A DNA stretch of 64,000 nucleotides. Source: Trichodelitschia bisporula. Lineage: Eukaryota. Each line of letters opens with the position of its first letter. Position 1 is the first letter of the stretch. The translations under genes were made by a program, and so were the position numbers. The stretch spans positions 558,001 through 622,000 of the forward strand of contig ML996704.1 of NCBI GenBank assembly GCA_010356995.1, written 5' to 3'. Positions 15,526 through 20,739 of the stretch are shown one piece after another. Below the pieces are notes generated by a model that had not been told where the DNA came from, did no database searches, and saw only the letters and a program-made list of their open reading frames with translations.

Positions 15526-16462
15526 GAACCATAATACCCTTGTTGGCTTCGTTCCCTTTGTACGCATGGATTTGGCAAGGATATGGCTGGCGTTGGGAAC
15601 CCCGAGGGGCCTGTGGGGGAAGGCGCGCTCGGGAGTGTCAAAAGCTTTTCGATGTACGGATGTAGAAGTATCATGGCCGGTTATTTGCTGCAGGTAGCTG
15701 CAGGAGGATCGAAATTCTGTAATACAATCACGAGCACAACGAATCTGATGTTGATAAGCGACACTTCTTTCATGTGGATGATGGAGGGGCCCCTGCGCCG
15801 TATGCATGTTGACAGCCTGCAAGATGGAGGATCCGCCGAGGGATGCAACTCTGGGACGGGCGATTCACAAAGTCGTGTGCCCAAAGCCCTTCTGTTTGGT
15901 ACAAACCTCTGCTATTTAGACGGTAGGCAAGCCACACACAGCGGAAGGTGTCAAACAGCAGTGAGGCATCTGACCAGGTCAGTAACAAGGCAGAGTCAGC
16001 AGATAGGATAATGATGTTGAGTTAGGCAAAACCCCAGAATCTGGTCAGCAAGCTAGTTCTAGGTGCAGAGCGATTCACCTAGGATATATAAGGAGGTATA
16101 TTTGCAGCGACTGATTCACCACTGTGTACTTATCATACACGATTAGTCTTTCACTCACGAAGAGTACACAGTACACAGTACCTCAGTAAATCCAAGGTGC
16201 CAGCCGCCGCGTCGCATGCACAGACCCCTGCAGTGTTACGGCTGGCGGAGACTCGGATTTTATAAAGTCCGCCCCGTGGCATCCTCAAGACCCAGGTTGC
16301 GTCGCCAACCTGACCTCCTGCAACTCCTCCATCCATCCCCTCCACGACGAACAACTCTCTATCGACCAAAGCATATCCCCGCCGCCTGCACGCAATCGTA
16401 CATCTGCCCAACAACTCTTACTGCTAATTGTCAATCTTTGCGCATCCCGTTCTACCGCCGCA

Positions 16463-17396
16463 ATGAATCCCGAGTAGTGCGTCTCCCCTCCGCCACTCGT
16501 CATCTGCTGCAAACGGCAGCTCGGCATGGTCCTTCCACGCTCTAGAGACCCCAAAGGCTAACTCCCTTGCGATTCAGAGTTTAACCACCTCCATACTTCA
16601 CCCGGAGTTGTCTTCAAGGGTGAGACGGAAGTACAGAGCTAACGCAGGCAACCATCAGATACGACTATTTGTTCAAGCTACTCCTCATCGGAGACTCCGG
16701 TGTCGGAAAGTCCTGTCTGCTTCTTCGGTTTGCGGACGACACGTACACGGAGAGCTATATCTCCACGATTGGTGTCGACTTTGTAGGTAGTCCACCTGGA
16801 TAAAGCAAGCCAAGCTAATCCCTTCACAGAAGATTCGCACCATTGAGCTGGATGGCAAGACGGTGAAGTTGCAAATTGTACGTAAATCGGAGCCTACTTC
16901 ATCGGCTGCTGACGGTCTTTTAGTGGGACACCGCTGGTCAAGAACGGTTCCGCACGATCACTTCGTCCTATTACCGCGGTGCCCATGGCATCTGCGTCGT
17001 TTACGATGTGACAGATATGGATTCGTTCAACAACGTCAAGCAGTGGCTGCAGGAAATTGATCGCTACGCCACGGAGGGTGTGAACAAGCTCCTGGTTGGC
17101 AACAAGAGCGACATGGCAGACAAAAAGGTTGTGGAGTATACTGTCGCGAAGGTATTTTGCCCCGCATGCGCCCAACGACCAGACTCTAAACAACTGGCTA
17201 GGAATTCGCAGACAGCCTCGGCATACCTTTCCTGGAGACGTCCGCGAAGAACGCCTCCAACGTTGAACAAGCCTTCCTGACCATGGCCCGGCAAATCAAG
17301 GAGCGTATGGGCAACACCGCCAATCAGAACAAGGAGAAGATCAACATCGGACCGGGTCAGAGCGTTCAATCGGGTTCTGCAGGTGGGTGTTGCTAG
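16463..17396 (+). CDS. YPT1: Rab1/Ypt1 GTPase, spliced
   Basis: [54 protein letters not shown] and ETSAK motifs; C-terminal GGCC prenylation motif. Confidence 0.97.
16474..16658 (+). other. Complex intervening sequence: [D3,4] stwintron in YPT1 (internal intron 16477-16577 inside the donor of the external intron)
   Basis: GA|GTA[GTGCGT...GCTAAC(16557)...CAG(16577)]AGT...GCTAAC(16638)...CAG(16658)|ATACGAC. Excising the internal intron creates GTAAGT; the final joint GA+A TAC restores E-Y. Confidence 0.85.
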
Positions 17397-18099
17397 GCGT
17401 AAGGCGACTGATGAGGTGGAGTCGAGCTTCATGAGCATATGTCACGTGCATTCCCCTGTTCGTTACGCTCTTCCGAGAGGGATGGTCGGTGGCTCTCTCG
17501 GCTTAGTTGGATCATGTTTTCGGGTTTGTTGGCGGGTTTCGGGAATGAGTGGAATGCACTTGAGTGACCGGGACATGCTTTGGGCAACGGAACGTTAGAT
17601 AGACAACCTGCGGCGCGCTCTTTGACGGCAACCTCAAATTTGTCGCCTCTGCTGCTCTCCTAAGTTCGGGGTCTTTGTTTCTGTCACATCTGGTTGCTGT
17701 TCTTTGTTACACGGCGATAACGGTGCACATTGCGTCTGGTTAGTCTGACTAATAACTCGAGTTATCATGTACTTTGGGCTGCGTGCTGGTGTCCGGGAAT
17801 TCCACTGTCTATGTCAGAGTAAGGGAACGGTTCTCAAATTTTACGACTGGCAGAGGAAGTCAGGGATGCCGCGCAAACTCGGTGCGTAGGAATGGATGGC
17901 AAGGCGGGAAGCATGGCGTAGCTTCAGCCATCCATAAAGCTCTATGGATAGAGGTGGTCTCTCGGGGTCTGCGTTTTGAAGACAGGATTGAAGCCTTGAA
18001 AACGTGTAGTAGGCCAACAAGTGGCTATCTAGCTTCACGACTAAGTCCGAGCCCAAATACCGCCCATGACCTACGCTACATGCCATGCCTTAATACCCC

Positions 18100-20739
18100 T
18101 TAATCATCATCATCGTCCAATCCAGCCAACCGATTATCAGCAATCTCCTCGATCTTTCCCGCCAAAACCTCTCGTCCAAACCTCCTCGCCACTTTACCCG
18201 CCGCATCGAGCATCCGTCCGCTCCGATCCCTCATCAAACCCACAATCTCTAGCGCCTTCATTCCGCGCTCCTCGCCCTCGCGGCACTCCGCCGCTAGCAG
18301 CTGCAGCAGCGCCTTATCAGCCTCCACTTCCCACCTTGCGACTTCCATCTTCTGTGCCTGGCTCGCGCGCGTCGCAGCAAGGAGATCTTCGCCCAGCGCT
18401 ACTAACGTCGAGTGGAGTACATACGCCTGCTCGTGCGCGCGACTCTCGCGACCAGGATCCTCGTCCTCTGCGCCAACCGTCGCAGAAAGTGGGATTTCAA
18501 AGTCGAAGTCCGATAGCAGCGGTCGTGGGAAATACGGGTACCGCTCCCCGCCCTTCAAAATGATGCAGTGGAACTTGCCCCCCGCGACCGCGACCGGCCA
18601 GTACGACTCCTCGCGTCGCCCGCCTGCCAGCCGATCCAGCCGCGTTGTGTCCAGCAGCGGTACCCAGCGGGCTTGGCCGGGTGTGCGCCAGTGCACGAGC
18701 ACGCAGAGCACGCCTGAGTCGTCGAAGATGTACGGGTCGCCCGAGTCGGACCAGAATACACTTTGCAGGTTGCCGCCGGGTGGGAGAGCTACGACATCTT
18801 GTGACTGGCACACGTCGTCACGCTTCACGTTTTCGATGCTGTATACGAGCTGCGTGCGGCCGTCCGCTCCCACCGGCCCGTTGCCTACTACGAGCACGTA
18901 GTCGCGCCAGGCAGCGCAGGTCACAGCGGGAGAAGCCTTCATCCGTGATACTCGGACTGGGACGCCAAAGAGCGTGTACACGCGTACGAAGCCCCGGTCT
19001 GTGCATGCTACGATGTACGAGTCCGAGAGCGCGATGGCAAGGACGGCTTCGCCGGCTGGTAGGCTGGTACGCCAGTCGGCACGGGTGTGCCAGGTCTCAT
19101 GGGGGCGGTAGTAGAGCTGTGCGGAGTCGCTACCACGAGGTTGGGAGGAGAAAAGCGCGCCGTTGTCGTTTAGACATGCCTTATCGTACATCCATGGATC
19201 TGTGAAATGAAAGTCGCGCCGGAAGCTGCGATCGTAAAACTCAACCGTCACGGTGTGGTGGGTTTCCTGGTTTACCGTCCAGACGATGCCTGTGAAGTTG
19301 AGGCAAAGATATCGGCGGTTGCCCCGCCAAGGTGTGCTTGCGGGTTGGAAGGGTTCGTGGATGGTTGGGGTCCAAGGTTCAGCTGCCTGACGCTTTGAGC
19401 GAGGAACCGGGCCGTCACCGTCGTGGGGCCGCTTGTTTGGTCTGGCGGCTCCATTGACATACCCTGCACCATCGTCATCAATGATGAAGTCGTCGCCGTC
19501 GTCTCCACCAATCGACATGTCATCGAATATCGCATCGACTGAGTCAGGGGTGCCAGCGCGGCGAACAGGGCGGGTAGGAATGGCGGCCTTTTGGCCATTT
19601 GTGGGGGCAGAGCGAGCATCTGGGAGGGAATCGTTGATGAAGGGGGCGGGCTGAAGGCTCTTTTGGAGGATAGATTCGTAGGCGGTAGGAACGAAGTCGG
19701 TGTGGATGTAGAGCTCGCCATCGTTGTTGGTGTAAGAGAGGATGTTTTGAGACGGGTGCCAAGTCAGTGCGAGGATAGGGGCGCGGATGTCGGTGAAGGA
19801 GGCGAGGATCTTTTGGGTCTTGGCATCCCACAGGTGCAGTTTGCGGTCCAGGCCAGTCGTTGCCAGGAGAGCGCCGTTAGGTGACCAGGCGGCAGCGCTG
19901 ATATCACCAGTGTGGCCATCCTGGAAGACACGCTGATTTGTCCAGTCGCTACGGGAGACGACCTGTACGTCCTTGCTAGAGGTAGGCGCCGCAAACGCCC
20001 TCCCATCCGGATGCCAAATAATCTTGGAGCTGGCTTCTGCATCTGTCTCAAGGCTCTTGACCAGGCCGTCTAACTTCTTTTGGAGCTGCGGCTCTTCGGA
20101 ACTGAGAGAGTAGATGTAGACAACGCCGTCGGAGCACGAAGCAGCGAGCAAGGTGCCAGTCTTGTCAAAGCTGACATGTTTCACCGGCTTCGACTGTTCC
20201 CGTAGGTATAGTACTCGAGTGGTGTCTTTAGTGTTGACGACCTTGACGACAAGCTCGCTGCGCTCAGTTAGAGACGGGTCTGCTACGCTTGGGGATGTAC
20301 GCACTCGCTGGCCACAGCCGCCCAGTTGCCATCCGGTGAAAGGGCAATATCGCGGACCGGAAGCGTACATCTGGTAAGGAGATCGTCGAGGGTATTGGTC
20401 TCCAGCGAATACTTGGACACCGTTCCATCCTCGCAGCCGGTGATGAAGAAGTCATTCTGCGGCCGTCAGTCTCCGAGACACGAGGGCTTATGGGATGCCT
20501 ACATGTGCCGCAACAGCCGTATTGCTATCCTGGCAGTTGTCTATGGTCGTAGGTTCGGCATCAGATCCCGTATGAAAGACACGTATGGCATTGTTCAGGC
20601 CGATCGTGATGAGTTTCGTCCCGTCAGGTGTGTAGGCGAGAAAGGTGGGACCCGGCGTATCTAGCAGTGTTAAAGCAGTTCTTTCTCTCTAGGCGTTAAA
20701 CTCACGAGCTGGTCGTCCTCTTAATCGCGGTGGAGCCAT
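18100..20739 (-). CDS. CTF4: Ctf4/Mcl1/SepB (AND-1) replisome adaptor: WD40 repeats plus SepB domain
   Basis: Starts MAPPRLRGRPA. WD40 repeats (GHTGDISAAAWSPNG), Mcl1_mid 'PFQPASTPWRGNRRYLCLN...VTVEFYDR', and 'WVPLLDT...ESYWPVAV...YPYFPRP'. Confidence 0.93.

What the first reader, a model, noticed from the sequence alone, without database searches (positions are those of the whole stretch)
16474..16658. Nested spliceosomal twin intron ([D3,4] stwintron) in the Rab1/YPT1 gene
Seen: to encode the conserved MNPEYDY, splicing must run from 16474 to 16658, but the genomic donor GTAGTG is poor. A complete 101-nt intron (GTGCGT 16477, GCTAAC 16557, CAG 16575-77) sits between donor nucleotides 3 and 4. 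Removing it joins GTA+AGT into the optimal GTAAGT of an 84-nt external intron with its own branch site (GCTAAC 16638) and acceptor (CAG 16658). The two-intron reading with a 1-nt exon gives GAG-TAA (stop), and GTGCGT joined to 16658 shifts the frame. Known: fungal stwintrons with interrupted donors are an established class. Inference: obligatory ordered splicing of an essential trafficking GTPase, with an intermediate carrying an early stop (MNPE*) that could act as a regulatory or NMD point. I cannot tell whether this instance is published.
Basis: partly seen in the sequence, partly recalled or inferred. Interest (0 to 1): 0.85.

Follow-up and report, generated by a model that had tools for sequence, protein, structure and literature searches.

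The report
Conserved nested twin intron in Ypt1
The first intron of this fungus's Ypt1/Rab1 trafficking gene is a small intron nested inside the start signal of a second one, so it is apparently removed in two cuts, and six related fungal sequences keep the same layout.

Summary
The Ypt1/Rab1 reading frame needs a 16473|16659 junction. The 185-nt intervening sequence starts with GTAGTG, which matches 3 of 6 positions of the fungal donor consensus GURWGY. A complete 101-nt intron (16477-16577) splits that donor after nt 3, and removing it creates GTAAGT.

RNA-derived contigs from two runs of one sample show the mature junction (depth 21026.6 and 4656.7). They also show exactly the predicted intermediate junction 16476|16578 (64.5 and 18.5), about as abundant as unspliced RNA (71.6 and 22.1).

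Seven metagenome loci have an intron at this position. Six have enough upstream sequence, and all six show the same [D3,4] layout. Their introns are otherwise unalignable (31-48% identity) and their synonymous sites are strongly diverged.

The internal donor lies exactly where more distant Rab1 loci have an ordinary intron, 3 nt downstream of the mature junction here. This suggests a one-codon intron shift.

The stwintron texts I read name [D1,2], [D2,3], [D4,5], [D5,6] and [A2,3], but not [D3,4] or ypt1.

Verdict: a real, conserved stwintron of a new positional type. That the two steps are obligatory is inferred. A regulatory or NMD role has no support.

The parts
16463..16473 (+). Exon 1, coding part (ATG AAT CCC GA: M N P and the first two bases of Glu4)
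   Evidence: sequence. RNA joint 16473->16659. RNA cover starts near 16332 (record 2).
16474..16658 (+). Whole complex intervening sequence (185 nt): the [D3,4] stwintron
   Evidence: Absent from the mature RNA contigs: joint 16473->16659, GT..AG, depth 21026.6 and 4656.7. It is the only hit of the [D3,4] pattern in the window.
16474..16476 (+). 5' half (GTA) of the split donor of the external intron
   Evidence: Stays attached to exon 1 in the intermediate joint 16476->16578. It is GTR in 7 of 7 loci, counting the window.
16477..16577 (+). Internal intron, 101 nt: donor GTGCGT 16477-16482, branch element GCTAAC 16557-16562 (branch A 16561), acceptor CAG 16575-16577
   Evidence: Precisely removed in RNA contigs of both runs: joint 16476->16578, skips 101, GT..AG, no shared letters at the cut. 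The donor matches GURWGY at 5 of 6 positions.
16578..16580 (+). 3' half (AGT) of the split donor of the external intron
   Evidence: Joined to GTA in the intermediate. It is AGT in 6 loci and TGT in 1 of the 7, so the regenerated donor matches the consensus at 6 of 6 positions in all 7.
16578..16658 (+). Body of the external intron (84 nt with the GTA): branch element GCTAAC 16638-16643 (branch A 16642), acceptor CAG 16656-16658
   Evidence: The contig 16578-16688 (depth 115.7 and 66.5) shows RNA that still holds this part joined to exon 2.
16659..16782 (+). Exon 2 (A + [42 protein letters not shown]-loop)
   Evidence: Pfam Ras PF00071, E 8.1e-13.
16783..16829 (+). Intron 2 (47 nt, donor GTAGGT)
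   Evidence: RNA joint 16782->16830.
16830..16877 (+). Exon 3 ([16 protein letters not shown])
16878..16923 (+). Intron 3 (46 nt, donor GTACGT)
   Evidence: RNA joint 16877->16924.
16924..17151 (+). Exon 4 (WDTAGQE...VAK, 76 aa)
   Evidence: Best solved relatives are Rab-1A, Rab-1B and YPT1, E 1e-36 to 4e-40.
17152..17201 (+). Intron 4 (50 nt, donor GTATTT, no G at +5)
   Evidence: RNA joint 17149->17200 with 'cut +2' gives GT..AG at 17152-17201.
17202..17396 (+). Exon 5, coding part ([16 protein letters not shown]...GGCC, stop TAG 17394-17396)
   Evidence: (ORF 17202..17396, 64 aa).

Best explanation
Intron 1 of the Ypt1/Rab1 gene is a donor-disrupted spliceosomal twin intron of type [D3,4], removed in two consecutive ordinary U2 splicing reactions.

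Step 1. The spliceosome recognises the only consensus-like donor present in the primary transcript, GTGCGT at 16477. By intron definition it pairs this donor with the nearest branch site and acceptor (GCTAAC 16557, CAG 16577) and removes 101 nt.

Step 2. That ligation joins GTA (16474-16476) to AGT (16578-16580). This makes a perfect GTAAGT donor directly after ...CCCGA. The new donor pairs with GCTAAC 16638 and CAG 16658, so the remaining 84 nt are removed and the GA|A Glu codon is formed.

The arrangement is old and kept by selection. The internal donor is the original Rab1 5' splice site, which lies in the Tyr5 codon in more distant eukaryote loci. The mature junction therefore lies one codon upstream of that older intron position.

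Shown: the anatomy, the mature junction, the intermediate junction in RNA, and conservation.
Inferred: that the intermediate is on-pathway, that the order is obligatory, and the evolutionary route.

I see no evidence for a function beyond getting the intron out.
For: (1) Sequence. The genomic donor GTAGTG matches the fungal consensus GURWGY at 3 of 6 positions. The consensus is as quoted in PMC12403724 Fig. 1 legend and PMC7138796 Fig. 1 legend. The internal donor matches 5 of 6 and the regenerated donor 6 of 6.

(2) RNA contigs (runs X1 and X2, one sample).
- The joint 16476->16578 is present in both runs: skips 101, GT..AG, 30 letters each side, no microhomology. Depth is 64.5 and 18.5.
- The mature joint 16473->16659 has depth 21026.6 and 4656.7.
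- The unspliced contig 16447-16607 has depth 71.6 and 22.1.
- A contig holding the external-intron body joined to exon 2 (16578-16688) has depth 115.7 and 66.5.
- The intermediate is therefore roughly as abundant as the precursor, as expected for two transient species in series. Contig depths are rough.
- These contigs match the window with 0 other letters over more than 1 kb and also skip the three other introns, so they are cDNA of this organism.

(3) Conservation.
- Of the 80 metagenome loci kept, 7 have the frame break directly before the Tyr codon.
- 6 of these have upstream sequence, and 6 of 6 read GA|GTR|GTNNGN ... branch ... YAG|[AT]GT ... YAG|ATAC.
- In all 7 sequences, counting the window, the direct donor scores 3 of 6 and the regenerated donor 6 of 6.
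- The intron bodies are 31-48% identical after alignment. Third-codon-position identity in exon 4 is 0.41-0.63, or 0.24-0.32 against L035.

(4) Chance.
- Per-locus shuffle frequency of the internal 3' site plus [AT]GT is 0.4-1.1%.
- The full pattern hits the window once.
- A relaxed pattern hits the 145.6 kb of loci 7 times. Six hits are at this exact site. The seventh (L041) overlaps coding sequence.

(5) More distant Rab1-like loci L009, L025, L029 and L042 have a standard intron after ..TA of the Tyr codon. That is exactly where the internal donor sits here.
Against: - Contigs cannot show order or flux. The 16476|16578 RNA could in principle be a side product rather than an intermediate.
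- Both runs come from one sample and one study, so there is a single independent RNA observation. The runs are only guessed to be RNA by their record.
- Intron 4 of the same gene is spliced from GTATTT, which lacks G at +5. Weak donors can therefore work in this organism, and some direct use of GTAGTG is not excluded.
- The related loci have no RNA evidence and no taxon names.
- L035 lacks a strict CTRAY branch element for its internal intron. It has only TTTAAC.
- L003 and L005 could not be evaluated because they are truncated upstream.
Confidence: 0.8

Rival explanations
1. One-step splicing. The 185 nt are removed directly from the weak GTAGTG donor to CAG 16658. The 101-nt excision is an occasional unproductive side reaction whose product (MNPE-stop) merely accumulates.
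For: Intron 4 of the same gene uses GTATTT without G at +5. The intermediate is only about 0.3-0.4% of the mature junction depth. Contigs cannot show precursor-product relations.
Against: This does not explain why 6 of 6 evaluable related loci keep a branch site plus YAG followed by [AT]GT, giving a 6-of-6 consensus donor, inside otherwise unalignable introns. It also does not explain why the direct donor is 3 of 6 in all seven. The stronger internal donor overlaps the outer one by position, so both can hardly be bound at once (inference).
Confidence: 0.07
2. Dual route. Both the two-step path and direct one-step excision contribute materially to mature mRNA. This resembles the Lipomyces starkeyi [D6,7] case, which can be removed in either way.
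For: PMC7138796 (section 6 read) documents such dual use in a related class of complex introns. Nothing excludes it.
Against: In L. starkeyi both donors are canonical. Here the outer donor lacks consensus at positions 4-6 in all seven sequences. Conservation of the regenerated donor argues that the two-step route carries the selective load.
Confidence: 0.1
3. Regulatory checkpoint. The two-step design exists to hold back Ypt1 expression, with the MNPE-stop intermediate as an NMD or retention point.
For: The intermediate has a stop at codon 5 in 6 of 7 sequences. Mis-joining the internal donor to the outer acceptor gives a stop in 7 of 7.
Against: These stops follow automatically from the GTRAGT consensus and from exon 2 starting with A. 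L001 has TAT instead. The intermediate is under 0.5% of mature RNA in the one sample seen. No condition-dependent data are available.
Confidence: 0.05
4. Artefact. The 16476|16578 junction is a reverse-transcription template switch or an assembly chimera, not a splicing product.
For: Only short (about 60-nt) junction contigs from one sample support it.
Against: The cut has GT..AG ends, zero shared letters at the joint and depth 64.5 and 18.5 in two runs. It falls exactly on the splice sites predicted beforehand from sequence and conserved in other loci.
Confidence: 0.02

Closest known systems
[D2,3] stwintron of the biotin gene bioDA (Sordariomycetes; Flipphi et al., PMC5639578, Background section read)
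   Same: An internal U2 intron splits the 6-nt donor of an external intron. It is conserved over a whole fungal class and sits at the position of an older standard intron.
   Different: The split is after nt 2, not nt 3, and the gene is different. Here the internal donor, not the outer one, coincides with the older intron position, so the net junction is moved by 3 nt.
[D5,6] stwintron of the reticulon-like gene rtnA, and [D4,5] in Lipomyces lipofer (PMC6616335 passages; PMC7138796 sections 3 and 6)
   Same: Donor-disrupted stwintrons sensu stricto that form the first intron of the gene. Intermediates were shown as RNA lacking only the internal intron. [D5,6] is present across Pezizomycotina classes, so deep conservation has a precedent.
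   Different: The split position differs (after nt 5 or nt 4). Those cases were validated by targeted RT-PCR. Here the evidence is public RNA contigs from one sample plus comparative sequence.
[D1,2] stwintrons (the common type; PMC12403724 introduction read)
   Same: The same two-step logic and the same dependence on intron definition. Mis-splicing from the internal donor to the external acceptor gives a defective mRNA.
   Different: [D1,2] can also be read as [A2,3] and can propagate as sequence-similar 'sister' copies. The ypt1 element is single-copy, position-conserved and sequence-diverged. Its mis-spliced form keeps 3 nt in frame and gives a stop, rather than 1 nt and a frameshift.
Stwintron-mediated single-nucleotide intron shift (Fekete et al., PMC5587772; abstract seen in the listing only)
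   Same: It links nested introns to a displacement of the effective intron position between orthologues.
   Different: That shift is 1 nt, through alternative [D1,2]/[A2,3] readings. Here the apparent shift is 3 nt (one codon) relative to the intron in the Tyr5 codon of distant Rab1 loci. The route is inferred, not shown.
Recursive splicing at ratchet points (Drosophila and vertebrate long introns; cited in PMC6616335; details recalled)
   Same: A 5' splice site is regenerated by a first splicing reaction and used in a second.
   Different: In recursive splicing the first reaction starts at the true exon end and lands on AG|GTAAGT, so the introns abut. Here the first intron lies wholly inside the second and three intronic bases stay on the exon.

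Membership tests
[D] stwintron sensu stricto (Flipphi/Fekete definition, PMC7138796 introduction) | The internal sequence is a complete canonical U2 intron (donor, branch element, acceptor) | tested here: met
   GTGCGT ... GCTAAC - 12 nt - CAG, 101 nt. The donor matches GURWGY at 5 of 6 positions.
[D] stwintron sensu stricto (Flipphi/Fekete definition, PMC7138796 introduction) | [quoted passage not shown] | tested here: met
   It lies between nt 3 (16476) and nt 4 (16578) of GTA|AGT.
[D] stwintron sensu stricto (Flipphi/Fekete definition, PMC7138796 introduction) | The external intron has a canonical donor only after the internal intron is removed, and has its own branch element and acceptor | tested here: met
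   The donor scores 3 of 6 before removal and 6 of 6 after. GCTAAC 16638 and CAG 16658.
[D] stwintron sensu stricto (Flipphi/Fekete definition, PMC7138796 introduction) | An RNA species lacking only the internal intron (the splicing intermediate) is detectable, and the mature mRNA lacks the whole sequence | tested here: met
   Joints 16476->16578 and 16473->16659 in both runs of one sample.
[D] stwintron sensu stricto (Flipphi/Fekete definition, PMC7138796 introduction) | [quoted passage not shown] | not testable with these tools
   This needs splice-site mutants or lariat and nascent-RNA data. It is supported only indirectly, by conservation of the regenerated donor.
Rab1/Ypt1 subfamily of Ras-like small GTPases | Ras-family GTPase domain with a P-loop (GDSGVGKS) and the WDTAGQE switch II motif | tested here: met
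   Pfam PF00071 matches exons 2, 4 and 5 (E 8.1e-13, 1.8e-28, 9.6e-07). The motifs are visible.
Rab1/Ypt1 subfamily of Ras-like small GTPases | Closest to Rab1/Ypt1 rather than to other Rabs | tested here: met
   Exon 4 matches Rab-1A, Rab-1B and YPT1 chains at E 3.7e-40 to 4e-36. The next group (Rab10, Rab35, Sec4, Rab8) is at about 5e-26 to 5e-24.
Rab1/Ypt1 subfamily of Ras-like small GTPases | C-terminal double-cysteine prenylation motif | tested here: met
   The ORF 17202-17396 ends ...GGCC.

The most novel reading that the evidence does not exclude
This is the first [D3,4] stwintron, filling the one donor split position not named in the stwintron texts I read. It is an ancient, strictly two-step intron of an essential housekeeping gene. 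It keeps the old pan-eukaryotic Rab1 5' splice site as its internal donor. On this reading it is a living record of a one-codon (3-nt) intron shift produced by stwintronisation, and it is maintained across fungal lineages whose synonymous sites are saturated.
Probability: 0.5. Interest if true: 0.7.

Novelty: new variant of a known kind. Interest (0 to 1): 0.6.

Why it matters
Stwintrons are the clearest natural evidence that fungal spliceosomes pair the nearest sites (intron definition) and can scan a transcript twice.

- **A new type.** Almost all known cases are [D1,2], and other types are called rare (PMC12403724 introduction). A [D3,4] case would complete the series of donor split positions.
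- **An unusual host gene.** It sits in a highly expressed, essential and universally conserved gene, where any failure of either step gives MNPE-stop. It is conserved across deeply diverged relatives, so it offers many natural replicates for asking what keeps such an arrangement stable.
- **Intron sliding.** The internal donor coincides with the intron position of distant Rab1 genes. This gives a concrete, testable example for the old question of whether and how introns 'slide', here by exactly one codon.
- **Annotation.** Gene finders must accept a GTAGTN or GTGGTA donor to get the correct Ypt1 N-terminus, and RNA-seq junction callers will report a 'novel' 101-nt intron that creates a stop.

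Tried and rejected
**Resources that gave nothing**
- No whole genome is held for this window. I could therefore make no genome-wide donor statistics and no search for other stwintrons in this organism.
- No RNA holder is listed on record for the stretch. The two runs are labelled 'RNA? (a guess)'. That they hold cDNA rests on the spliced joints.
- Earlier notes of this scan gave nothing relevant: 'stwintron' is met in no finding, and there are no look-alike windows.

**Joints not listed**
- The joints 16476->16659 (internal donor to outer acceptor) and 16473->16578 are not listed. Contigs drop rare variants, so this is not evidence of absence.

- The literal string for the [D3,4] type cannot be searched, because the paper tools refuse commas and two-character terms. 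Substitutes with spaces found nothing even for [D1,2], so they are uninformative.
- I relied instead on reading: the introductions of PMC12403724, PMC5639578 and PMC7138796; section 6 (part 1) of PMC7138796; and passages of PMC6616335, PMC8469720 and PMC9024468.
- I also relied on searches: 'stwintron' plus 'GTP' found 1 paper, a general review. 'stwintron' plus 'third and (the) fourth' found 0 papers. One search was uninformative.
- 'ypt1' + 'first intron' + 'splice' gave 6 unrelated papers. A mixed search listed no paper holding both a nested-splicing term and a Rab1/ypt1 term among the 20 shown of 1142.
- The 2013 founding stwintron paper is not held, and supplements were not opened. A [D3,4] or ypt1 case could be in either.

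**Locus searches and loci set aside**
The search ran with exon 4 by reference.
- L003 and L005 are truncated upstream and could not be scored.
- L038 shows only 15 nt between a candidate exon 1 and exon 2 and was left uninterpreted.
- For L024 and L039 no exon 1 was found within 600 nt.
- The one extra hit of the relaxed pattern (L041) overlaps the WDTAGQ coding exon and is a false positive.

**Analyses to disregard or rejected**
- The 'product' printed wrongly includes L035, which does not meet the strict branch pattern. Only the per-locus fractions should be used.
- I considered that the internal and external 3' modules (both GCTAAC - 12 nt - CAG) arose by duplication. By eye, outside the consensus elements about 4 of 16 positions agree, so I rejected the idea.

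Full report
**1. The observation**

- The only ATG-led frame giving the conserved Rab1/Ypt1 N-terminus is ATG 16463, with exon 1 ending at 16473 (…CCC GA).
- The frame resumes at 16659 (A TAC GAC TAT …), which reads [22 protein letters not shown] (frames).
- The 185 nt in between begin GTAGTG.
- A complete small intron lies at 16477-16577: GTGCGT … GCTAAC 16557-62 – 12 nt – CAG 16575-77.
- It is followed by AGT. Its removal turns GTA|AGT into GTAAGT, at the head of an 84-nt intron with GCTAAC 16638-43 – 12 nt – CAG 16656-58.

Joining the internal donor to the outer acceptor leaves three bases in frame and gives TAA at codon 5. It does not shift the frame.

**2. The gene**

- Exons 2, 4 and 5 match Pfam Ras PF00071.
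- The best solved relatives of exon 4 are Rab-1A, Rab-1B and yeast YPT1 (E 3.7e-40 to 4e-36). Rab10, Rab35, Sec4 and Rab8 are far behind.
- The protein ends in GGCC.
- No tool named the organism. That it is a filamentous ascomycete is my inference from the 46-50-nt introns and CTAAC-type branch sites.

**3. Is it more than chance?**

- A pattern for the whole [D3,4] layout hits the 64-kb window once on both strands, at exactly 16474-16658. In 100 block shuffles the mean was 0.11 hits and the maximum 2.
- I shuffled the interior of the intron while keeping its ends. A branch element plus YAG followed by [AT]GT, at usable distances, appears in 0.53% of 20000 shuffles.

**4. RNA evidence**

One search found two coded runs, X1 and X2, from one sample and one study. 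They are kept as contigs and only guessed to be RNA. Laid on 16200-17800, they match the window with no differing letters over more than 1 kb. They skip all four intervening sequences of the gene with GT..AG ends, so they contain cDNA of this organism.

| Species | Depth X1 | Depth X2 |
|---|---|---|
| Mature joint 16473→16659 | 21026.6 | 4656.7 |
| Predicted intermediate joint 16476→16578 (skips 101 nt, 30 letters each side, no shared letters at the cut) | 64.5 | 18.5 |
| Unspliced contig 16447-16607 | 71.6 | 22.1 |
| External-intron body joined to exon 2 (16578-16688) | 115.7 | 66.5 |
| 33-nt contig ending exactly at 16476 (exon 1 plus GTA) | not shown | 31.5 |

- In X2 the promoter region has no cover, so the unspliced and intermediate species there are not genomic DNA background.
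- Contig depths are rough. With that caveat, the intermediate is about as abundant as the precursor and about 0.3-0.4% of the mature form. This is what two short-lived species in series would give.
- Contigs cannot prove order or flux, and this is a single independent sample.

**5. Comparative evidence**

I searched JGI-type metagenome contigs with exon 4, by reference.
- 32 of the 80 loci carry the uninterrupted YDYLFK…GK[ST] motif.
- In 7 of them (L001, L002, L004, L005, L006, L007, L035) the frame breaks directly before the Tyr codon, as in the window.
- L005 has only 93 nt upstream and cannot be scored. L003 (96% identical in exon 4) is also truncated.

All 6 evaluable loci have the same architecture. 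A short exon 1 ends in GA. Then comes GTA or GTG, then immediately a good donor (GTAAGT ×3, GTATGT ×2, GTACGA). Next is an internal branch element and YAG followed by AGT (5 loci) or TGT (1 locus). An external branch element and YAG follow, and exon 2 begins ATAC GAY.

Counting the window, across all 7 sequences:
- the direct donor matches GURWGY at 3 of 6 positions in 7 of 7;
- the regenerated donor matches at 6 of 6 positions in 7 of 7;
- internal introns are 60-183 nt and external introns 78-136 nt.

The intron bodies are otherwise unalignable, at 31-48% identity. Exon-4 third-codon identity is 0.41-0.63 among the closer loci and 0.24-0.32 against L035. These are therefore different, deeply diverged taxa.

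Per-locus shuffle frequencies of the internal 3' site plus [AT]GT are 0.4-1.1%. The strict branch pattern is met in 6 of 7; L035 has only TTTAAC.

A relaxed [D3,4] pattern hits the 145.6 kb of all 80 loci (both strands) seven times. Six hits are at this very site, and the seventh (L041) overlaps coding sequence.

Selection has thus kept the internal 3' splice site and the three bases after it. Direct one-step splicing gives no reason for that.

**6. An older intron position**

In more distant Rab1-like loci the frame breaks one codon later, before Asp. In four of them (L009, L025, L029, L042) I found an exon 1 ending …GAR (or GAC) TA, followed by GTAAGT or GTGAGT and a single 181-500-nt intron ending YAG|Y GAY. 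L024 and L039 share the acceptor position, but exon 1 was not found within 600 nt.

The internal donor of the stwintron (after …GAGTA) therefore sits exactly at this other, apparently older 5' splice site. The mature junction of the stwintron loci lies 3 nt upstream, and exon 2 has gained ATA.

My inference is that an ancestral intron in the Tyr5 codon was 'stwintronised':
- a GAA-to-GAG change supplies the outer GT;
- a new internal acceptor followed by AGT arises;
- three bases are added at the start of exon 2.

The order of these events is unknown. This is in the spirit of the stwintronisation model of PMC7138796 (introduction). It resembles the stwintron-linked 1-nt shift of PMC5587772 (abstract in the listing only).

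**7. Mechanism**

- Step 1: the internal donor, the only consensus-like donor in the primary transcript, pairs with the nearest branch site and acceptor, and 101 nt leave as a lariat.
- Step 2: the new GTAAGT pairs with the outer branch site and acceptor, and 84 nt leave.
- Shown: anatomy, both junctions, conservation.
- Inferred: that the observed RNA is on-pathway, that step 1 is obligatory, and that U1 cannot use the outer GT while the internal donor is present.

The early stop in the intermediate is a by-product of the donor consensus. It is present in 6 of 7 sequences; L001 has TAT. I therefore find no support for a regulatory or NMD role.

A point against a strict reading: intron 4 of this gene is spliced from GTATTT. 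Weak donors can work here, and a minor direct route is not excluded.

**8. Comparison with what is known**

From the texts I read, the stwintron group had demonstrated:
- [D1,2], [D2,3], [D5,6] and [A2,3];
- [D4,5], first reported in the 2020 paper itself;
- the looser [D6,7] and [D7,8] (PMC7138796 introduction and section 6).

In 2021 they listed (D2,3) bioDA and (D5,6) rtnA for Xylariales (PMC8469720 passage). In 2025 they state that almost all known cases are [D1,2] and that other types are rarely met (PMC12403724 introduction).

Searches:
- 12 papers in the library hold 'stwintron'.
- Only one of them, a general review, also holds a word starting with GTP.
- None holds 'third and (the) fourth'.
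- Searches on ypt1 found nothing relevant.

I could not search the literal type name. The 2013 founding paper is not held, and I opened no supplements. An earlier mention therefore cannot be excluded.

This element meets four of the five defining features of a [D] stwintron sensu stricto. The fifth, that the internal excision is obligatory, is not testable here.

**9. Verdict**

The finding is real. It is a new positional variant of a known kind. Its interest lies mainly in intron evolution and splice-site choice, so I score it 0.6. This scan had not noted it before on other DNA.

Noticed in passing
window 17152-17201: Intron 4 of the same gene uses the donor GTATTT (no G at +5, after exonic AAG) and is cleanly spliced in the RNA contigs. 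Non-consensus donors are therefore tolerated in this organism.
   Followed up: partly
L009 253-731; L025 619-1132; L029 647-1155; L042 955-1155: More distant Rab1-like metagenome loci have a single standard first intron one codon downstream (…GAR TA|GTRAGT … YAG|Y GAY). This is exactly where the stwintron's internal donor sits.
   Followed up: partly
L035 1028-1300: A divergent Rab1-like gene has N-terminus MASQE and is 76% identical in exon 4. It lies on a 345-kb contig and carries the same [D3,4] layout (GTG|GTAAGT … CAG|AGT). It is either a very deep lineage or a paralogue that inherited the stwintron.
   Followed up: no
window 16557-16577 and 16638-16658: The internal and external 3' modules are both GCTAAC - 12 nt - CAG, with the same hexamer and spacing. 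Outside the consensus elements they are not similar, so this is probably coincidence rather than duplication.
   Followed up: partly
window 17397-17800 and beyond: RNA contigs of 3.6-3.8 kb run on from the Ypt1 stop codon past 17800. A convergent minus-strand ORF seems to end near 18100. This is either a long 3' UTR or overlapping convergent transcripts merged in one contig.
   Followed up: no
window 16200-16361: A 457-nt contig covers the promoter region upstream of the main RNA start (about 16332) at depth 48.6 in run X1. Run X2 has no cover there. This could be an upstream transcript or DNA background in X1.
   Followed up: no
L038 1275-1330: A candidate exon 1 (…GCAGAATA) lies only 15 nt before the acceptor-like CAG|C GAC TAC. 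That is too short for an intron, so the gene model there is unclear.
   Followed up: no
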